NCBI GenBank assembly: GCA_965237955.1
Contig: OZ250169.1
Span: 5,184,001 to 5,248,000, forward strand
Length of the DNA: 64,000 bases
DNA from: Candidatus Marinacidobacterales bacterium
GTDB lineage: Bacteria > Acidobacteriota > Vicinamibacteria > Marinacidobacterales > SMYC01
Direction: 5' to 3'
In this document: positions 25,241 through 35,508 of the stretch, one piece after another
How positions within the stretch are numbered: the first letter of the stretch is position 1
Layout: each line of letters opens with the position of its first letter
The notes under the pieces: model-generated
The model's input: the letters and a program-made list of their open reading frames with translations, nothing else
Told to the model about the DNA's origin: nothing
The model's database searches: none
Position numbers and translations under genes: made by a program

Positions 25241-26674
25241 CTGATCCGGCGTGTGCGTTGGTAGAGCGAATAAGTAGGCGTCGCCGTGAGCGCTTTGTCC
25301 ACGGTGCGAGCCTGAGATCCTGATTAATGAAGTTGATTAGCACGCGCTCCGCTGCGGCGATGAGGAGGAGCGATGCCAAACCGGATTGCTGGGATAGACG
25401 TTCACAAGAAGATGCTGGCGGTGGTGGTCGCCGACATCGCAGTAGAGGGCGAGTATAAGTTTTCGCGCCGGCGTGTGGGCACGAGACCGAGTGAGCTTCG
25501 GGCTCTGGCGGAGTGGCTGGTGGCCGAGGGGGTCGATGAAGTAGTGATGGAATCGACCGCGCAATATTGGCGCCCGGTGTGGGAGGCGTTGGAGCGGTCC
25601 TGGGCTCCGCAGTGCCGAGCTCGGCCGGGCGCGGGTGCGCAGTCGGGCAACTTGCATCTGGCGCAAGCAAAGTCGAATCGCGGCGCGCGGGGTCGGAAGC
25701 GGTATTTTCCGGATGCCGAACGATTGGTGAAGCGTTTGGTGGCGCAGGAGCTGACTCTAAGCTTCGTTCCCGAGCCGGAGCAGCGCCTGTGGCGAACGGT
25801 GATGCGCCGCAAGTACCAGTTCACGCGTAACCGGGTTCAGCTCCAAAACCGCCTAGAGTCGTTGCTGGAGGAAGCGCATCTAAAGTTGTCGAGCCTGGTG
25901 TCGGATCTTCTGGGGCTGAGTGCGCGGCGGATGTTGCAAGCCTTGGCGGACGGGGAAACGGAGCCGGCCCGCTTGGCGGAGTTGGCCGACCGTCGATTGC
26001 GTGCCACGCCCGAGCAGTTGTGCGATGCGCTCGGCGCGTGTGCCGATCTCAACCCCGTCTATCGGAAGCTCGTGCAAATGACGCTCGAGGAATTACGATT
26101 GCTCGAAGAGCAGAGCGCGCAACTCGATGAAGAGATGGCGCATCTGCTCGGCGAGCATCAAGCAGCTGTGCAACGACTCGCTGAAGTGCCTGGGCTCGGC
26201 GTGGATTCGGCGCAGCAGATCATCGCGGAAGTCGGGGCGAGCGCCGAGACGTTTCCGTCGGCCAAGCACCTCGCGTCCTGGGTGGGCGTGTGCCCCGGAG
26301 AGCACGAAAGCGCCGGCAAAAGCTACAGCCATCGCTCGCCCAAAGGCAGTCGGCCGATGCGCCGCCTCCTCAATCAAGCCGCCAACGCGGCCGTCAAGAC
26401 CAAAGGGAGTTTCTTCCAGCTCGTGTACCGGCGCTTGGTTCCACGCCTGGGGCACGCGCAAGCCATCTGGGCCGTTGCCCATCGGTTGTGTCGTTTAATC
26501 TGGAAGATTCTCCACCAGGGCGTTGACTATGAGGAACGTGGCCCCGACGTTAGCCGCGCGCGCTCCAAACGACGCATTGCCAAATATGATCCGCGACCTG
26601 CGCAAACTCGGATATCACATCGAGCCTTCTCTACGGGGAGATCCAGCATGACGATAGATGTTTTTCGATCCTGG
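25241..26674 (+). mobile_element. IS110-family insertion sequence
   Basis: CTGG at 25237-25240 and 26671-26674; removal restores TTC AAC TGG TTC GAA GAG (FNWFEELKRLVPTDN). Confidence 0.8.
25373..26651 (+). CDS. IS110 DEDD recombinase/transposase (frameshift near 26585)
   Basis: GIDVHKK, VMESTAQYW, VPGLG, SWVGVCPGEHESAGK; likely true C-terminus MIRDLRKLGYHIEPSLRGDPA* lies in another frame. Confidence 0.88.
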
Positions 26675-26714
26675 TTCGAAGAGTTGAAGCGCCTCGTCCC
26701 GACCGACAACTGAC

Positions 26715-27897: not shown

Positions 27898-28398
27898 GAT
27901 GAATCCCCCAAAGCCTGTGCCCTGGGGGCAGGATGCGGCATTTGATGTACGTTAGAAGCAAACACCATGCTAGGAGTTGGCGCCATCGCTTGCCCGCGTC
28001 GGAGGTGGCTTGTTTGCTGTCGGATACGTCGATGCAGAAAGTATTGTGGTATCCGTCCCGTGGGTAGTTCCCAACAATACCGTGTCGCCACGTAGCATTG
28101 CATGCCCAAGATGGTCATCCGGCGTCGGCGATGTGTACCTCACCATGTGTCGAAGTGGGGCACTGCCAAGTCGCGGCTGACGAAGAAGACACGTCTTTCG
28201 CAGACTGGACGCAGGGCTGCTCCAACCCGAGCCGTCCCTCGAAGTCGAATGTTAGCGGCGGGCGTAAATTGCACACTTATGGCGGACGAAAATTGCACAC
28301 TCGGCCATCCGTAAAAGGAGGCCGTTGTCGTGTGTCTGGAGTGCCAGACATGACGGCGCGCCTTCAATCAGAATGGCGTTTCCGGAGTGGAGGCGCCG

Positions 28399-29442
28399 AT
28401 GTACGGAAGGGAGAAACGAGTGTTACTACGAGAGTATTTGGAGCAGGGAATCAAGAAGGCGGCGCTAGCAGACAAGCTAGGAATCAGCCGCCGAACGGTC
28501 CACCACTGGATAAAGACGGGTCAACTGGACCGAGAGTTGGACGAGGAAACGGTGCGCTACAAGAAGCGTCCGCGGATCGAGCGCAGGATCGACCCGTACC
28601 GGGAGATCCTTCATTCGCGCCTGCACGAGTTCCCGGAGCTGAGTTCAGTACGCCTGCATGATGAGATCCGTGCCGCGGGCTATGAAGGCGGCTACACGCA
28701 GGTCAAGGAGTACGTGCGGCAGATTCGCCCACAGCCACCGGCGGAGCCGCTGGTGCGTTTCGAGACCCCACCAGGCCACCAAGCTCAGGTCGATTTTGCA
28801 CACTTTCGTTTGCCATGGGGTCGTCGGTGGGCACTTCTCGTGGTGCTCGGATACTCGAGGCTGCTATGGCTTCGGTTTTTCAAGCGACAGGACATGCGGA
28901 CGTTGTTCGCGGGGCTTGAGCAGGCCTTCCTATTTTTTGGAGGAGTTCCCAAAGAGCTCCTTTTTGACCAGATGCGTTCGGTCATCGTCGAGGATCACCG
29001 CCGGGAAGGTGGCCCTCTCGTTGAGAACCCAGAGTTCGTCCGCTTCGCCCACCACTGGGAGTTTCGAACAAGAGCGTGTCGCCCGTATCGGGCGAAGACC
29101 AAGGGCAAAGTGGAAAGGCCAATCCGCTATGTGAGAGGAAGCTTCTTCTACGGTCGCCACTTTATCAACGATGACGACCTCGATGCTCAGCTCGAGCGTT
29201 GGCTGAGTGACGTCGCCAACGTCCGACTCCATCGCACAACCAACGAACGACCGATAGAACGATTCGCGCGCGATGAAAGGGCCACTCTGAGACCGCTCGT
29301 TGAGCGGCCATATCGCTCTCTTGTACTGCCAAACCAACCCGCGAGAAGAACTCCAAAAGCCTGCTTAACCACACTGCCTTCGATGGATGTCGAGCATCGT
29401 CCCCTCGAAGTCTACACGCGGCTCGTTGGAGGTGGACAATGA
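28399..29442 (+). CDS. istA: IS21 transposase
   Basis: RFETPPGHQAQVDF, LGYSR, FGGVPKELLFDQM, KGKVER. Confidence 0.93.
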   Translation: MYGREKRVLLREYLEQGIKKAALADKLGISRRTVHHWIKTGQLDRELDEETVRYKKRPRIERRIDPYREILHSRLHEFPELSSVRLHDEIRAAGYEGGYTQVKEYVRQIRPQPPAEPLVRFETPPGHQAQVDFAHFRLPWGRRWALLVVLGYSRLLWLRFFKRQDMRTLFAGLEQAFLFFGGVPKELLFDQMRSVIVEDHRREGGPLVENPEFVRFAHHWEFRTRACRPYRAKTKGKVERPIRYVRGSFFYGRHFINDDDLDAQLERWLSDVANVRLHRTTNERPIERFARDERATLRPLVERPYRSLVLPNQPARRTPKACLTTLPSMDVEHRPLEVYTRLVGGGQ

Positions 29443-30266
29443 AGGCGAGCACAATATCGCGACGTGAGCAGATCCGTACGATGCTGGCCGACCTAAAGAT
29501 GCCTGGCGCGCTCGAAGCTGTCGACCGCGTACTATCTGATGCCGATGGCGGTGCGGTCACAACGGCGGAGGCCATCGAGAACCTTCTTGGAGCGCAGATC
29601 ACGTTGAGAAACAACCGTCGTCTCCAAGCGGCGATGCGCTCCTCACGACTCCCCGCGGTCAAAACAATCGATGAGTTCGATTTTTCGTTCCAGCCATCGA
29701 TCAAACGCGAGCAGATTGAGAACCTTCACGAGCTCGGGTTCGTTGAACGTAAGGAGAACGTCGTCTTATTGGGACCTACTGGTGTGGGCAAAACTCATCT
29801 TGCCATCGCCGCTGCCCAGAATGGACGGCGCGTCTATTACGGCACCCTGGCTGAGCTCATCACCTCCCTCGAAGAGGCTCGTGACGCGGGCCGCCTCACT
29901 CGTCGACTCGCGGTTCTCAGTTATCCGTCACTGCTTGTTGTCGATGAAATCGGATACCTACCCGTCACCCAGACCGGCGCGGTGCTTTTTTTCCAGCTCA
30001 TAAGTAGGCGATACGAGCGCGCTTCGACCGTGCTCACCTCTAACAAAAGTTTCGAGGAATGGGGCGAGATCCTTGGCGACGAAGTCATGGCCGCCGCTCT
30101 CATCGACCGCATTCTGCACCACTGCCACCTCGTCAACATCCGAGGAAACAGTTACCGCATGAGAGAGCACTCCGAACTGTGGCGAGCGCTCCATCCGGCG
30201 GGTTCGGACGAACCTCACCCGCCGGCTAAATCTCATAGGAAATACACGGAGGCGACGGCGTCATAG
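29439..30266 (+). CDS. istB: IS21 helper ATPase
   Basis: GPTGVGKTHLA, LLVVDEIGY, LTSNK, DRILHH. Confidence 0.93.
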   Translation: MKASTISRREQIRTMLADLKMPGALEAVDRVLSDADGGAVTTAEAIENLLGAQITLRNNRRLQAAMRSSRLPAVKTIDEFDFSFQPSIKREQIENLHELGFVERKENVVLLGPTGVGKTHLAIAAAQNGRRVYYGTLAELITSLEEARDAGRLTRRLAVLSYPSLLVVDEIGYLPVTQTGAVLFFQLISRRYERASTVLTSNKSFEEWGEILGDEVMAAALIDRILHHCHLVNIRGNSYRMREHSELWRALHPAGSDEPHPPAKSHRKYTEATAS

Positions 30267-31592: not shown

Positions 31593-31690
31593 ATGGATGG
31601 GCGATGGCCCGGCCGCGCGACCGCGGGTATTGTCAAGTTGAGAGCTCCCAGGGCGATCCGACCGCGTACCAACCGACATCGCGGGGACTG

Positions 31691-31845
31691 TTACTGCCAC
31701 ACCCAGCGTGGTTGCTCGAAATGGGCCACGCGCGTGGCGCGTCCATGTAGCAGGACTTCGCGGGTTTGATACAGCATCGTGGCCGTAGGCGCCCAGATCG
31801 TCGTACCAAGAAGCGGCATGGGGAAACAAATCAACGGGCGCTCGC
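31691..31845 (-). pseudogene. Diverged duplicate of the 3' end of the Nudix gene at 33305-33934
   Basis: RPLICFPMPLLGTTIWAPTATMLYQTREVLLHGRATRVAHFEQPRW vs RPLMCFPIPLLSTTVWAPTAAMLYQTREVLLHGRSTRVAHFEQPRF. Confidence 0.9.
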
Positions 31846-31924
31846 CTGGTAAATTTCGAGATGCTGCCGGCCGGTGAGGTGTTCCGTGCCCTCGTAACGC
31901 CGGCATCGTGTTAGGCTCTTCCGC

Positions 31925-33239
31925 ATGTGGATTTCCTATCTCGCGCTCCTTCTTGCGGTCCAGTCGGCTCCGTTCGAAGTCGGCAGGCCCCGTCCCGGCT
32001 TTGACGCTTCCTTCGATCACCGACGGCAAGCCCATGTCCCTGGCCGAGTTTCGCGGCCGGAAGGTCATGCTGCACGTCTGGGCTTCCTGGTGAGCGGGCT
32101 GCCGTAAGCACGTGCCCGGGTGGCACGAGAAAACGAAGGCGCTGCAAGAGGCAGGCAAGCTCGAGTTGGTCGGCATTATCGAAGAGCAGCACCCCGATCG
32201 GACGCGCCTCTTCATGCAGTGGAAAGAGATGGGCTGGCCGCTCCTCATCGACTCGTTGAATCTTCTCGACGTGTCGGCTGTGCCTCTGACCTATCTCGTC
32301 GATGAAGGAGGGGTTGTCCGCTTCGAGCGGCCGAGCGACGAAGATCTCGAAATGTTTTTGGCCACCGACTACACGAGCGCGGATAATCATGCCCGGTCGC
32401 TGGATCCGGAACGTGACTCCCCGGAGCACGTGCTGCTCTGGGGCGACGACCGCGATGTGAGCGACGCGATCGCGGAACTCGGGCAACGAATCGGCGAGGC
32501 ACCCGAAGATTCCCGCGCGCACTTCCGTTTGGGTGTGGCTTATCGAAAGCGCTACGATTCGGCCGAGCGTCGCGCCGGGGATTTTCAGAAAGCTGTCGAG
32601 CAGTGGGTACGTGCACTCGAGCTCGACCCGAACCAATACATTTTTCGACGCCGCATCCAGCAGTACGGGCCCCGGCTCGACAAGCCCTATCCGTTCTACG
32701 ACTGGGTTCCCGAAGCGAGGGCGGCCGTCGAGGCGCGGGGTGAGACGTCCGTCGCCCTGCGCGTGGAGCCGCGCGGCGCCGAGTTCGCGAAGCCGCTGAA
32801 GTCTTTTGCCGCCAGTGCCGAGACCGGGGAATCACCCGATCCCGGCGGGCGCATCTTCCGTGACGAGCAACCTCTCATCGTCGCCGAATCCGTGGTCGTT
32901 CCCACGGTCATCGAGCCCGGCGAGAGCGCGCGGATCCATGTCGCCCTGAGGCCCGATCTCTCGCTGAAAGCCCACTGGAACAACGAGGTGGATGATCTCG
33001 TGTTCTGGGTCGATCCACCCGAAGGCTTTCGTGTCGATCGCCGCCAACACACGGTCGTGATTCCTCCGAAGCCCGTGAGCCAGGAGCTTCGCCAGATCGA
33101 GTTCGAGATCGCGAGCCCCGAAAATTTCACCGGAATGGCTACGCTCTCAGCGTACGCGCTCTACTACGTGTGCGAAGACGTCGACGGCACGTGCCTTTTC
33201 CGTCGCCAAGACGTGCACGTCGAGCTGAGCGTGAGGTAG
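31925..33239 (+). CDS. Probable secreted selenoprotein: TlpA-like thioredoxin (UxxC) + TPR + DsbD-alpha-like domain
   Basis: In-frame TGA 32091-32093 reads HVWASW-U-AGCR; SECIS-like hairpin downstream; the signal peptide from ATG 31925 needs one base removed in the C-run near 31990. Confidence 0.82.
32111..32127 (+). promoter_or_regulatory. Bacterial SECIS-like stem-loop
   Basis: CGTGCC-CGGGT-GGCACG starting 17 nt after the UGA; G/U-containing apical loop. Confidence 0.7.
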
Positions 33240-33304
33240 CTTTTCGTGAACGCGACGTCGGCGCTCCGGATGAGCTCGATCATCCTTAGAGCCGTAAAAG
33301 ACGT

Positions 33305-33934
33305 TCACTTCCACGCGAAGCGCGGCTGTTCGAAGTGGGCGACGCGCGTCGATCGCCCGTGTAGCAGAACCTCTCTCGTCTGATAGAGCATCGCGGCCGT
33401 GGGCGCCCAGACCGTCGTGCTCAGGAGCGGAATAGGGAAGCACATCAGAGGACGATCGCTCGTCTGTCCTTCGGTGATGCGGGGGACGCCGGGAGCATCG
33501 AGCACTTCGAGCGGCACGATGTGCGCCGCGTGAACCTCGACGGGATCGGGCGTAAGCTCGGGTCGATCCGGGCCCCAAACGACGACCGGGGTGATGACGA
33601 ATCCCGAGCGCGTCTGGAAATCGTCCAGGTGTCCGACGACACCATCACGATCGAGCTCGAGTCCGACCTCTTCTTTGACCTCTCGAAGTGCGGCTTCGAT
33701 GACGCTCTCGCCTTCATCCGTGCGTCCGCCCGGCAGTGCCCACTGTCCCGCGTGGCGCCGGAGGGTCAAGGGTCGCCGGGTGAGAATGAAAGAAGCATCG
33801 CCGTCTTCGTTGCCCACAAGCGTCACCGCGACCGCGGCGGGTACGAGATCGTGGTCGACGATTTCTCGACGCTCGAAGCTCTCCATCCGCTCGGTCACGC
33901 GCTGGCGAAAGCCGTCGTCGAAAGCGATGCGCAT
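33305..33934 (-). CDS. Nudix hydrolase, CoA pyrophosphatase-like
   Basis: LTRR...HAGQWALPGGRTDEGESVIEAALREVKEEVG. Confidence 0.92.
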   Translation of the reverse strand: MRIAFDDGFRQRVTERMESFERREIVDHDLVPAAVAVTLVGNEDGDASFILTRRPLTLRRHAGQWALPGGRTDEGESVIEAALREVKEEVGLELDRDGVVGHLDDFQTRSGFVITPVVVWGPDRPELTPDPVEVHAAHIVPLEVLDAPGVPRITEGQTSDRPLMCFPIPLLSTTVWAPTAAMLYQTREVLLHGRSTRVAHFEQPRFAWK

Positions 33935-35508
33935 TATTGAAAGAAGCCGAGGCTCCGAAGTTTTTCGAGCTCCTCCGAGCTCATACTTTCGGCAGCGGCG
34001 TCGTCGGTCGCGAGCTGGTTCTCGAGCGCCCATTTGTGCCAGCCGTCGAGTTGTTCGGCCAGCCGCTCGACGATCTCTGGATTCTCCTCGGCGACGTTTT
34101 TCTGATTCAACGGATCAGCACAATGGTCATAGAGCTCGAGCTCGGGAACCTCGACGCCGTCGGGCGCGCGGACATTGTGCACGAGCTTCCAACCGTCGAG
34201 GACGATGCTGAACGCATCGACGCGTCCACGTCCGATCGGCTCTGACGGTGGCGCCTTGTACTCCGAAATTGCTGGCCGGGTGCGAAACGCGGCCGTTTCA
34301 CCCGACGCCGACATGAGCGGCACCAGCTCGATGGGTACTGGCATCAGATTCCACGTGAATCGACTCAGCTCGTCCTTGTGCTTCCACAGGACCTCGCGCT
34401 CCCAGCTGCCATCGCCGGTGAGACGATAACGCCTCACGTCTTTTTGGTCGTCGCTCGCCACATACAGCTCGTCGCGCCCGTCACCGTCGAGATCGAGAAG
34501 GATGGAGGCATGCTCGAATCCCGAAGAATCCGAAGCGATCAGCTCCTTGGTCCAGCTGTCTCCGGATTCCGGCCGGAGTAACCAAAGGCCTTTCTTGTTC
34601 GTAGCCGCAACGATTTCCTTGTCCCCATCCCCATCCACGTCGCCCGCGGTGAGGAAACGGCAGAGACGATCGTCGATCGTCGTAACGACGTTTCTCTCCG
34701 CTGGGTCGGTATCGGCGTCGTAGCGGCGGATCTCGACGCTACCGCCCGCCACGCCTTCCACGGAGACGTAGAGCTCGTCGCGCCCGTCGCCATCGACGTC
34801 GGCAACTAGAATCTCTTTCGCATGACGATTGCCGAGGTCCGCCACCTCGACGCGACCCTCCGATTTGGCAGGGACGTATCGCACGACCCGCCCGGCCTGC
34901 GGCGTGCCGTCGAGTTTGTTCGGTGCGGTGGGCGTTGCGTAGATTTCGATCGTACCGTCTCCATCGAGATCTCCCAGCTCGATTTCGTGCACGACGGTGT
35001 TCGGCTCGCGGTCCAGTTCCTCGACCGAGAATCCACCATTGCCATCGGGTTTCAAGACGGCGACCACGCCCTGGTCGTGGGTTGCGACCGCGATCGCGGC
35101 GGTGCCGTCGCCGTATATATCGCCCACCTCGGCGTCGCGCATGCGGCTGAACTTCCCACCGAAGTCGGCTTCCCAGAGGGTCTCGACATCTCCGGATGGA
35201 GACCGGAGCTTGACCGCGGCCTTGGTGCCTCCGAAAGTCAGCACTCCGGAAGCCTGATAGGCCATCGCCTTGTGAACGACGTTGCTGTCGCCGTCTTCGA
35301 AATATCGGTAGCCCCACTCGGTTCCGACATACGTGAGAACCCCGACGCGACCCGGAAGCGGCTTGGGTGAGCCGTTGTCGTTCTCACCGAGGGCGGCCAT
35401 GCTGAGGAGAAGCGCCTGGTCGTAAGCTTTGTCAGACGGAGTCGGAGCTCCGCATCCGAACATCACGAGAACGACCGCGGCGGCGCCGAGGCGGTTAGGA
35501 CCGTGCAT
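33934..35508 (-). CDS. FG-GAP/VCBS-repeat lipoprotein fused to a sulfatase-like C-terminal tail
   Basis: Lipobox MFGC; repeated GDxDGDG motifs; tail DGWKLVHN...ELYD...DP..KNVAEENPEIV...LRSLGF. Confidence 0.75.
   Translation of the reverse strand: MHGPNRLGAAAVVLVMFGCGAPTPSDKAYDQALLLSMAALGENDNGSPKPLPGRVGVLTYVGTEWGYRYFEDGDSNVVHKAMAYQASGVLTFGGTKAAVKLRSPSGDVETLWEADFGGKFSRMRDAEVGDIYGDGTAAIAVATHDQGVVAVLKPDGNGGFSVEELDREPNTVVHEIELGDLDGDGTIEIYATPTAPNKLDGTPQAGRVVRYVPAKSEGRVEVADLGNRHAKEILVADVDGDGRDELYVSVEGVAGGSVEIRRYDADTDPAERNVVTTIDDRLCRFLTAGDVDGDGDKEIVAATNKKGLWLLRPESGDSWTKELIASDSSGFEHASILLDLDGDGRDELYVASDDQKDVRRYRLTGDGSWEREVLWKHKDELSRFTWNLMPVPIELVPLMSASGETAAFRTRPAISEYKAPPSEPIGRGRVDAFSIVLDGWKLVHNVRAPDGVEVPELELYDHCADPLNQKNVAEENPEIVERLAEQLDGWHKWALENQLATDDAAAESMSSEELEKLRSLGFFQ

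What the first reader, a model, noticed from the sequence alone, without database searches (positions are those of the whole stretch)
31925..33239. Probable exported selenoprotein fusing thioredoxin (UxxC), TPR and DsbD-alpha-like domains
Seen: the track splits this gene into three ORFs. TGA 32091 sits at the first Cys position of a TlpA/ResA-type WASWCxxC motif (WASW-U-AGC) and is followed by a 6-bp hairpin with loop CGGGT. The frame continues through TPR-like helices (AHFRLGVAY...ALELDPNQY) to a beta-rich domain ending [13 protein letters not shown]. Inference: the last domain resembles the DsbD N-terminal Ig domain, so the protein may be a self-contained Sec-thiol electron relay outside the cytoplasm. 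This would imply the host has selA/B/C/D. The signal peptide is in frame only if the C-run near 31990 has one base too many.
Basis: partly seen in the sequence, partly recalled or inferred. Interest (0 to 1): 0.72.

Follow-up and report, generated by a model that had tools for sequence, protein, structure and literature searches.

The report
Exported three-domain selenocysteine thioredoxin gene
This is one intact gene whose in-frame TGA very likely encodes selenocysteine in the active site of a predicted secreted thioredoxin-like redox protein; the protein class is already known, but this three-domain, apparently selenium-only family is not catalogued and databases store it cut in two.

Summary
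One frame runs from 31908 to 33239, broken only by TGA 32091-93 inside WASW-U-AGC.

The same TGA sits at the same codon in all 36 related loci aligned. The 6-bp hairpin after it fits the bacterial SECIS model, and its synonymous sites are frozen while other sites drift. The genome has tRNA-Sec, selA, selB and selD.

The suspected extra C at 31988-91 is an assembly error. Every public contig crossing it, in seven runs from seven studies, has one C fewer. That joins ATG 31925 and a signal-peptide-like start to the frame, as in relatives.

The protein has a ResA/TlpA-like thioredoxin fold, a TPR-like helical domain and an Ig-like beta sandwich. The sandwich carries a conserved C-x6-C hairpin.

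The DsbD-alpha reading is not supported as homology: Pfam, profile-profile and fold searches show only a generic Ig fold.

No CxxC form was found. The three non-Sec relatives seen have also lost the C-terminal cysteine pair, which hints that the two centres work together.

It is a new variant of a known kind (UxxC thioredoxin-fold selenoproteins) and not a member of NF041054. This scan has already met the family in other genomes.

The parts
31925..33239 (+). Whole gene: ATG 31925 to TAG 33237-39, one reading frame once the spurious C in 31988-91 is discounted (437 codons plus stop)
   Evidence: relatives carry the same N-terminus in frame; contigs lack one C
31925..31969 (+). Predicted signal peptide [15 protein letters not shown] (cleavage site not determined; no signal-peptide predictor was available)
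   Evidence: Hydrophobic N-termini in frame in relatives, many with basic n-regions, and one lipobox-like ALGC in L071; inference
31988..31991 (+). CCCC run with one C too many in the assembly (homopolymer error), the cause of the apparent frameshift
   Evidence: a one-base deletion in the run in X1 (25.9 of 25.9 depth), X7 (14.8/14.8), X6 (4.5/4.5) and X2 (two contigs). X18 6.4/6.4, X19 2.1/2.1, X9 4.1/4.1. L028 and L029 have CCC
31989..32363 (+). Thioredoxin-fold (TlpA/ResA-like redoxin) domain
   Evidence: PF00578 45 bits (cut-off 26) and PF08534 35.6 bits; Foldseek to ResA 1st9_B/3c73_A, E 2e-9, TM 0.73-0.75; model pLDDT about 90-97
32091..32093 (+). TGA read as selenocysteine; first position of the U-A-G-C redox motif (32091-32102)
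32111..32127 (+). SECIS-like hairpin: 6-bp stem CGUGCC/GGCACG, loop CGGGU, 23 nt between UGA and the loop
   Evidence: -9.6 kcal/mol; 98.6% of cells paired, 3 wobble changes, 0 compensatory; frozen synonymous sites; consensus model
32421..32738 (+). Helical TPR-like domain; includes the most conserved stretch of the family, [27 protein letters not shown] (32625-32705)
   Evidence: Sub-threshold TPR hits (TPR_2 24.7 bits vs 27); helices 145-249 of the model; invariant columns
32877..33236 (+). C-terminal Ig-like beta sandwich with invariant KAHWNNE and a Cys pair on the last hairpin
   Evidence: Models; VIA Z up to 11.0 to Ig/macroglobulin-type domains; Foldseek
33171..33194 (+). C-x6-C pair (TGC 33171-73 and TGC 33192-94) flanking the turn of the last beta hairpin
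   Evidence: Nearly invariant in A3/A4; present in 139 of 150 representatives, 127 with x6 spacing
31686..31845 (.). Upstream copy of a 160-nt direct repeat (76% identical to 33300-33459, the 3' end of the NUDIX gene) that brackets the gene

Best explanation
Window 31925-33239 is a single intact gene whose conserved in-frame UGA (32091-93) is very likely decoded as selenocysteine with the help of the hairpin 18 nt downstream, giving a predicted exported three-domain thiol/selenol-disulfide oxidoreductase.

Shown:
- The frame is open apart from this UGA.
- The UGA and the hairpin are conserved in every relative examined.
- The hairpin's synonymous sites are under RNA-level constraint.
- The genome encodes tRNA-Sec, SelA, SelB and SelD.
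- The frameshift is an assembly artefact.
- The domains are a ResA/TlpA-like thioredoxin fold, a TPR-like helical domain and an Ig-like sandwich.

Inferred:
- The protein is secreted by a Sec-type signal peptide.
- Its U-A-G-C centre acts as the nucleophile of a reductase of the TlpA/ResA type. It would be kept reduced from the cytoplasm by the genome's single DsbD/CcdA-type membrane protein.
- Reducing equivalents are exchanged with the conserved C-x6-C hairpin of the Ig-like domain. This would be analogous to, but not homologous with, the gamma-to-alpha step of DsbD, before reaching an unknown envelope substrate held by the helical domain.
For: Sec coding.
- One TGA in the match in every row that covers the active site: 17 rows in 41 related genomes and 23 rows in 301 genomes of the phylum.
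- The motif [WF]ASW-TGA-[AQ]GC is at all 37 loci read. TGA is present in 36/36 aligned loci.
- The hairpin meets the published bSECIS constraints (section 5 of PMC13188914, read): 5-nt loop, 6-bp stem, G at loop position 2, 23-nt spacing, MFE -9.6 kcal/mol.
- 98.6% of 216 cells are paired. The only changes are 3 G-U wobbles and 3 unpaired cells.
- Codon entropy is about 0 at GTG, CCC and GGG, against at least 0.5 bit at every other conserved four- or six-fold-degenerate column.
- Contigs of other organisms pile up only on 32073-32135.
- Machinery: tRNA-Sec 72.6 bits with anticodon TCA; selA 543.9, selB 365.9 and selD 275 bits, all over cut-off. selA is in 40 of 41 relatives.

Intact gene. Searches cover the C-run. 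None of the listed variants falls on 32091-93.

Fold..

Two centres.
- The C-x(4-8)-C pair is in 139 of 150 representatives.
- The only three representatives that span the active site without Sec (P0208 CxxS, P0232 SxxC, P0226 SxxS) have lost one or both C-terminal cysteines.

Possible donor. There is one DsbD_TM gene in the genome.
Against: - There is no compensatory base-pair change in the hairpin, so the structure rests on conservation, not covariation.
- The 45- and 66-nt folds are no more stable than shuffles (z -0.5).
- No selenium incorporation has been measured.
- The signal peptide of this copy has no basic n-region and could not be scored with a dedicated predictor.
- No conserved neighbour, CcdA/DsbD or other, lies within 1.5 kb in 36 loci; at most 4 loci share a flanking family. 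Nothing in the context supports the proposed donor or substrate.
- The Ig-like domain shows no detectable homology to DsbD-alpha, and solved DsbD-alpha chains are not among the top 49-50 structural matches.
- I could not read model coordinates, so the distance between the two centres is unknown.
- The three non-Sec relatives may be one clade, so their joint loss may be one event.
- RNA-library contigs show presence in the libraries, not transcription.
Confidence: 0.9

Rival explanations
1. The gene encodes a real selenoprotein, but the C-terminal cysteine pair is only a structural disulfide stapling the last beta hairpin. On this reading the protein is a simple TlpA/ResA-like reductase whose helical and Ig-like domains only bind a substrate or anchor it in the envelope, with no internal relay.
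For: - Exported Ig-like domains often carry stabilising disulfides (general knowledge).
- There is no homology to DsbD-alpha.
- The best fold matches are non-redox Ig/macroglobulin/transglutaminase domains.
- No partner gene is conserved nearby.
Against: - The pair is kept in 139 of 150 representatives (142 with an intact C-terminal end), mostly with fixed x6 spacing.
- It is lost in exactly the three representatives that lost the Sec/Cys motif. A purely structural disulfide would not be expected to go with the active site.
Confidence: 0.35
2. The locus is a decaying pseudogene: a nonsense TGA plus a frameshift in a former CxxC thioredoxin gene.
For: In the assembly as given, the frame is broken twice, at the C-run 31988-91 and at TGA 32091. 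IS elements lie a few kb upstream.
Against: - The frameshift is absent from all contigs of seven runs.
- The TGA is conserved in 36/36 loci across a phylum.
- There is strong purifying selection on both sides of it.
- No CxxC ancestor-like form was found among 150 representatives.
Confidence: 0.02
3. TGA 32091 is a true stop. On this reading there are two genes: a 55-60-aa exported peptide, and a 375-aa 'TPR/hypothetical' protein starting at GTG 32112, as public annotation has it.
For: Gene callers give the 375-aa ORF. None of the 120 best database homologues covers more than 86% of the query, which fits calls that start after the TGA.
Against: - The split would cut a thioredoxin fold at its active-site helix. 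PF00578 spans residues 28-138 across the TGA, and ResA aligns across it.
- Frame and sequence are conserved across the TGA in all loci.
- The downstream hairpin's synonymous sites are frozen.
- The Sec machinery is present.
Confidence: 0.03
4. The UGA is read through as Trp, Cys or another standard residue (near-cognate suppression or an altered code), not as selenocysteine.
For: It cannot be excluded without chemistry. A conserved downstream hairpin could also stimulate read-through.
Against: - A complete, high-scoring Sec system is present in this genome and in 40 of 41 relatives.
- The UGA sits exactly at the nucleophilic position of a CxxC-type motif, which is typical of Sec.
- The hairpin fits the bSECIS model.
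- The gene ends with TAG, and only one TGA is in frame.
Confidence: 0.04

Closest known systems
NCBIfam NF041054 'ResA-like WAxxUGC motif-containing protein'. [quoted passage not shown]
   Same: - It is the best NCBIfam hit.
- The thioredoxin domains are 35% identical over 111 residues, with Sec at the same place after W-A-x-x.
- It occurs in the same phylum: 9 of 301 genomes score over the cut-off, each with one TGA.
   Different: - The score is 76.4 bits against a cut-off of 300, and only profile positions 82-197 of 354 match.
- The motif is U-G-C there and U-A-G-C here, a one-residue gap in the alignment.
- The member read (L117, 366 aa) has a different N-terminal region without an obvious signal peptide, and no Ig-like C-terminal domain.
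[quoted passage not shown] I saw these names in passages of the review's table (PMC13188914).
   Same: PF00578/PF08534 fold, UxxC motif, Sec at the first position, and a SECIS directly downstream.
   Different: - Those entries are listed as single-domain families with many Cys homologues; the GOS table gives Cys counts.
- This family adds a helical domain and an Ig-like domain with a second Cys pair. No CxxC form was seen among 150 representatives.
- I could not check whether the review's example accessions belong to this family.
ResA / TlpA / CcmG(DsbE) / StoA extracytoplasmic thiol-disulfide reductases
   Same: - Best solved structural matches are ResA 1st9, 3c73 and others, with TM 0.73-0.75.
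- The NCBIfam TlpA, ResA, StoA and DsbE models all hit the same 110 residues.
- The location is exported.
   Different: - All these scores are far below the curated cut-offs: 42.6 vs 170 for ResA and 45.8 vs 230 for TlpA.
- Sec replaces Cys.
- About 290 extra residues follow the fold.
DsbD (alpha Ig-like domain plus gamma thioredoxin-like domain)
   Same: - A thioredoxin-like redox domain and an Ig-like domain with a cysteine pair on a C-terminal hairpin sit outside the cytoplasm.
- The genome's own DsbD_N proteins carry Y-Q-V-C-x4-C at the equivalent end of the domain.
   Different: - There is no membrane (beta) domain, and the domain order is reversed.
- No sequence or profile similarity: Pfam PF11412 is not met, and hhalign gives 0.65%.
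- DsbD-alpha is not among the top structural matches.
- The spacing is C-x6-C here and C-x4-C there.

Membership tests
Bacterial selenoprotein gene (SelB/SECIS-dependent UGA recoding) | In-frame UGA conserved at the same codon in homologues, with coding conservation on both sides | tested here: met
   36/36 aligned loci; all rows spanning the site have one TGA; flanks are invariant
Bacterial selenoprotein gene (SelB/SECIS-dependent UGA recoding) | bSECIS stem-loop: loop 3-9 nt, upper stem 4-16 bp, G in the first two loop positions, 16-37 nt from UGA, MFE <= -7.5 kcal/mol (PMC13188914 section 5) | tested here: met
   Loop CGGGU (5 nt), 6 bp, G at position 2, 23 nt spacing, -9.6 kcal/mol. Conserved in 36 sequences with no compensatory change. 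Synonymous sites are frozen. bSECISearch itself was not available
Bacterial selenoprotein gene (SelB/SECIS-dependent UGA recoding) | tRNA-Sec, SelA, SelB and SelD in the genome | tested here: met
   72.6 bits with anticodon TCA; 543.9, 365.9 and 275 bits, all over the curated cut-offs
Bacterial selenoprotein gene (SelB/SECIS-dependent UGA recoding) | Sec aligns with a redox Cys in homologues | tested here: met
   It aligns with the first Cys of the CxxC of ResA/TlpA-type models and structures. Within the family there is one CxxS variant (P0208) and no CxxC form
Bacterial selenoprotein gene (SelB/SECIS-dependent UGA recoding) | Selenium physically present in the protein | not testable with these tools
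   Needs 75Se labelling or mass spectrometry
AhpC-TSA / Redoxin thioredoxin-fold superfamily (PF00578, PF08534) | Pfam score over the gathering cut-off and a matching fold | tested here: met
   45.0 vs 26 bits and 35.6 vs 26.6 bits; Foldseek to ResA E 2e-9, TM 0.73-0.75
ResA / TlpA / DsbE orthologue families (NF002854, NF047696, TIGR00385) | Score over the curated NCBIfam cut-off | tested here: not met
   42.6 vs 170, 45.8 vs 230 and 31.4 vs 123 bits
NF041054 WAxxUGC_long | Score >= 300 bits over the 354-position profile | tested here: not met
   76.4 bits, profile positions 82-197 only; 61.8 bits in the genome search, and no member over the cut-off in this genome
NF041054 WAxxUGC_long | W-A-x-x-U-G-C motif | tested here: not met
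   Here the motif is W-A-S-W-U-A-G-C. A true member (L117) has W-A-P-Y-U-G-C. BLASTP needs a one-residue gap
DsbD N-terminal (alpha) domain, PF11412 | Pfam score >= 25 bits | tested here: not met
   The window's domain hits no family at E<=10. 3 of 31 members match, best E 0.044. NPCBM_assoc matches more of them (11 of 31)
DsbD N-terminal (alpha) domain, PF11412 | Profile-profile similarity to bona fide DsbD_N domains | tested here: not met
   hhalign of A4 against A5 (25 DsbD_N domains from relatives): probability 0.65%, 36 columns
DsbD N-terminal (alpha) domain, PF11412 | Structural match to solved DsbD-alpha | tested here: inconclusive
   The fold is an Ig-like sandwich. DsbD-alpha is not among the 49 or 50 rows shown, and a family not listed is not excluded
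DsbD N-terminal (alpha) domain, PF11412 | Redox-active cysteine pair on the C-terminal hairpin | tested here: inconclusive
   The pair is present and conserved (C-x6-C), against C-x4-C in this clade's DsbD_N. Redox activity was not tested
TPR repeat proteins | Pfam TPR score over the gathering cut-off | tested here: inconclusive
   TPR_2 24.7 vs 27 bits and TPR_1 22.6 vs 27.8 bits for this copy. Many homologues carry precomputed TPR Pfam hits. The model shows helical hairpins at 145-249

The most novel reading that the evidence does not exclude
A soluble, secreted, obligately selenium-dependent two-centre redox relay. The selenocysteine thioredoxin domain and the C-x6-C Ig-like domain of one polypeptide pass electrons to each other. 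This would be a convergent, membrane-free counterpart of the DsbD gamma/alpha pair. The family has never had a working cysteine version, so selenium availability would directly gate an envelope redox pathway in Acidobacteriota.
Probability: 0.3. Interest if true: 0.65.

Novelty: new variant of a known kind. Interest (0 to 1): 0.48.

Why it matters
- Annotation. The gene, and by length and coverage the great majority of its relatives in public databases, is stored as a truncated 'hypothetical/TPR' protein that lacks its catalytic half. Recognising the UGA restores an exported redox enzyme to genome annotations of Acidobacteriota.
- Biology. Most bacterial selenoprotein families are dominated by cysteine homologues. 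Here Sec was found in every active member examined, and the only Sec-less relatives are redox-dead. That makes the family a good test case for why Sec is sometimes irreplaceable.
- Second centre. The conserved cysteine pair on an Ig-like domain gives a concrete, testable hypothesis for an intramolecular selenylsulfide relay outside the cytoplasm.
- Assembly quality. A single-contig genome can carry homopolymer errors that mimic pseudogenes.

Tried and rejected
- Covariation in the hairpin. There are no compensatory pairs, and the shuffle controls are uninformative because the stem barely varies.
- Larger folds around the hairpin. They are no more stable than shuffles, and the lower stem is not conserved.
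- Conserved gene neighbourhood. None within +-1.5 kb in 36 loci. Longer flanks were not fetched.
- DsbD-alpha homology, tried four ways. Pfam gave nothing for the window's copy. The PDB sequence profile gave 0 hits at E<=10. hhalign gave 0.65%. Fold searches found generic Ig folds only, and DsbD-alpha was not listed.
- Search for a CxxC form. There is none among the 120 best word-indexed hits (judged by coverage only, sequences not read) or the 150 best representatives. Lower-ranked hits were not examined.
- Model coordinates are not exposed, so the distance between the two centres could not be measured.
- RNA-library contigs identical to the window cover parts of the gene. The tool warns that this does not show transcription.
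- selA co-occurrence is uninformative because 40 of 41 relatives have selA.
- Literature. Two full-text searches found no paper describing a selenoprotein with a TlpA-like domain plus TPR. I read passages of PMC13188914 (its table, section 5 and the reference list) and passages of PMC2398784. Supplements were not opened and may list family members.
Full report
**Observation**

The frame beginning at 31908 is open to TAG 33237-39 except for one TGA at 32091-93. It reads ...[29 protein letters not shown].... Under table 11 the gene falls into ORFs 31925..32107 (another frame), 31908..32093 and 32112..33239.

The stem is 32111-16 paired with 32122-27, the loop is CGGGU, and it folds at -9.6 kcal/mol on its own.

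**The frameshift is an assembly error**

ATG 31925 opens [22 protein letters not shown] in the +2 frame. In the two closest relatives the same peptide continues in frame into VPALTLPS...; one example is L029, [30 protein letters not shown]. Their DNA has CCC where the window has CCCC at 31988-91.

Logan contigs of eight public runs were laid on the region.
- Seven of these runs, from seven studies, have contigs that cross the run. Every such contig lacks one base there.
- The depths are X1 25.9 of 25.9, X7 14.8/14.8, X6 4.5/4.5, X2 in two contigs, X18 6.4/6.4, X19 2.1/2.1 and X9 4.1/4.1.
- Three of these contigs are otherwise identical to the window (X1 record 2, X2 record 10, X19 record 14).
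- None of the listed variant rows falls on 32091-93. In one search, six further rows were not shown.

The gene is therefore intact, 437 codons from ATG 31925. The window comes from a single 8.13-Mb contig, so a homopolymer error is plausible.

**Is the TGA selenocysteine?**

Machinery.
- tRNA-Sec scores 72.6 bits against a cut-off of 47, and ARAGORN gives the anticodon TCA.
- selA scores 543.9 bits, selB 365.9 and selD 275, each over its curated cut-off.
- selA is in 40 of 41 related genomes, so the trait is general in the group.

Conservation.
- Searching whole genomes with stops read through, 15 of 41 relatives (G000 included) have the gene, and so do 25 of 301 genomes sampled across the phylum.
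- Every match row that spans the active site has exactly one TGA: 17 rows and 23 rows.
- Reading 37 loci, the motif is always [WF]ASW-TGA-[AQ]GC-[RS]xHVP[GV]WH.
- Three rows that cover only the middle or C-terminal part also carry a TGA (G002, G089 and G285). I did not examine them.

Public annotation.
- None of the 120 best of 2811 database homologues covers more than 86% of the query.
- Most of the 150 best cluster representatives start at query residue 69 or later, that is, after the TGA.
- So public annotation truncates the family.

**RNA-level constraint**

I codon-aligned 36 loci. I dropped the broken G002 copy, two contig-end fragments, four loci without the N-terminal part, and three duplicate loci.
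- Among the 157 conserved degenerate columns, those for four- and six-fold-degenerate residues (V, P, G, A, T, L, R, S) have codon entropies of 0.5-2.3 bits. The lowest, 0.5 bit, is the Gly two codons after the TGA.
- The exception is codons 7-9 after the TGA: GTG 36/36, CCC 34/35 and GGG 33/33.
- The flanking His codons are CAC 35/36 and 34/36.
- These codons form the stem and loop.

On 36 distinct sequences, 98.6% of 216 cells pair. The changes are three G-U wobbles and three unpaired cells. There is no compensatory change, so covariation neither supports nor contradicts the fold.

The element meets the published bacterial SECIS constraints: loop 3-9 nt, stem 4-16 bp, G among the first two loop positions, 16-37 nt from UGA, and MFE <= -7.5 kcal/mol (PMC13188914 section 5, read). 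Here the spacing is 23 nt.

In metagenome contigs, sequences of other organisms pile up only on 32073-32135. That fits nucleotide-level conservation.

**The protein**
- Sequence families. Pfam gives AhpC-TSA (45 bits, residues 28-138 across the TGA) and Redoxin, and sub-threshold TPR hits.
- Model. An AlphaFold model from 34 sequences has mean pLDDT 89.7 and pTM 0.88. It shows a thioredoxin fold at 1-125, helical hairpins at 145-249, a lower-confidence linker, and a beta sandwich at 297-415.
- Thioredoxin domain. Foldseek places it next to ResA (E 2e-9, TM 0.73-0.75).
- Most conserved stretches. These are the active site, EEQHPDRx[34 protein letters not shown] in the helical domain, KAHWNNE, and [20 protein letters not shown] at the end.
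- Cis-proline loop. The invariant V-P-x-T stretch lies where I recall the cis-proline loop of thioredoxin folds. That placement is recalled, not tested.
- Export. N-termini of relatives look like Sec signal peptides, and one has a lipobox-like ALGC. Export is inferred, because no predictor was available.

**Is the last domain DsbD-alpha?**

Modelled alone (pLDDT 85), the domain is an Ig-like sandwich.
- Structure. The best structural neighbours are generic: a lacto-N-biosidase Ig domain at Z 11.0, then complement and macroglobulin MG domains and transglutaminase C-terminal domains. 678 chains have Z >= 5. DsbD-alpha is not among the rows shown, which does not exclude it.
- Sequence. The window's domain hits no Pfam family at E<=10. 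PF11412 is touched by 3 of 31 members at E>=0.044. A profile search of PDB sequences finds nothing. hhalign against 25 true DsbD_N domains from the same order gives 0.65% probability.

So it may work like DsbD-alpha, but it is not a member of that family.

**Are the two centres coupled?**

Of the 150 representatives, 139 carry C-x(4-8)-C on the last hairpin, 127 of them with x6 spacing. The eleven without it break down as follows.
- Seven lack the C-terminal end.
- One (P0139) keeps one Cys.
- Three are the only representatives that span the active site without Sec: P0208 (C-x-x-S, one C-terminal Cys left), P0232 (S-x-x-C, none left) and P0226 (S-x-x-S, none left).

No CxxC form was seen. The joint loss suggests that the two centres act together, but the three may be one lineage.

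**Context**

No flanking gene family is shared by more than 4 of 36 loci within 1.5 kb. In the window the neighbours are a 161-aa TPR protein, a NUDIX hydrolase, an FG-GAP protein and IS110/IS21 elements. The genome has a single DsbD_TM gene, far away.

**Comparison with what is known**
- Closest curated family. The best NCBIfam hit is NF041054 (WAxxUGC_long), but at 76 bits against a cut-off of 300.
- True NF041054 members. They exist in 9 of 301 genomes of the phylum. One of them, read in full, has W-A-P-Y-U-G-C, no Ig-like domain and a different N-terminus. Its thioredoxin domain is 35% identical to ours, with a one-residue gap in the motif.
- Published catalogues. [quoted passage not shown] The GOS paper lists 'Prx-like (UGC-containing)' and several Prx-/Trx-like UxxC families with their Cys counts (passages).
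- This architecture in print. Neither text mentions a TPR or Ig-like extension. Two full-text searches found no such description. Supplements were not read.
- Earlier work in this scan. Earlier agents met the same family in other genomes and reached similar conclusions.

**Verdict**

This is a real, intact selenoprotein gene of a known general kind: an exported UxxC thioredoxin-fold oxidoreductase. It belongs to an uncatalogued three-domain family that appears to use Sec in every redox-active member. The relay mechanism is a reasoned inference, not a demonstrated fact.

Noticed in passing
window 31686-31845 and 33300-33459: A 160-nt direct repeat (76% identity) brackets the selenoprotein gene. 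The downstream copy is the 3' end of the minus-strand NUDIX gene 33305-34033. The upstream copy is an orphan fragment (63 aa, 68% identical). The closest relatives (L028, L029) have neither NUDIX nor the 161-aa TPR gene beside their copy, so the gene may have moved into this site.
   Followed up: partly
window 25373-26713 and 28387-30266: An IS110-family transposase and an IS21-type pair (integrase-core IstA and IstB ATPase) lie a few kb upstream of the gene.
   Followed up: no
L085 899-1896 (G000:C1:5975060-5976057): This looks like a second selenoprotein candidate in the genome. A 153-aa AhpC/BCP-like ORF has an in-frame TGA in GGW-U-PHC. A stand-alone exported DsbD_N-domain protein (49.9 bits) with Y-Q-V-C-x4-C overlaps its 3' end in another frame and runs downstream.
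   Followed up: partly
G000:C1:7826266-7826703 and C1:2917270-2917707: Two equally scoring thioredoxin-like matches (29.2 bits to NF041054), each with one in-frame TGA. They may be duplicated further selenoprotein genes.
   Followed up: no
L022 (G000:C1:4040942-4041856): selD lies in a 750-aa open frame, far longer than the 311-position model, which suggests a fusion protein.
   Followed up: no
L117-L122: True members of NF041054 (U-G-C motif, one TGA each) occur in 9 of 301 sampled genomes of the same phylum. They form a separate family from the one studied here, and five genomes (G055, G109, G122, G170, G325) hit both searches, though their NF041054-like hits score below the cut-off.
   Followed up: partly
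L040/L043/L047 (G002), L042 (G008), L068, L080: Some relatives' copies look damaged. G002's copy is split over three frames, one of G008's two copies lacks the C-terminal end, and L068 and L080 lose the frame before the Cys pair. These may be assembly errors like the window's, or real decay.
   Followed up: no
window 31936-32193, 32215-32458, 32826-32981: Contigs from metatranscriptome libraries (X19, X15) that are identical or nearly identical to the window cover these parts of the gene, including the UGA and the hairpin. Presence in an RNA library does not prove transcription.
   Followed up: partly
G000:C1:8045680, C1:2988839, C1:2853531: Three places give the same weak redoxin-like score (about 35 bits) in 256-aa open frames, so this is a repeated gene in the genome.
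   Followed up: no
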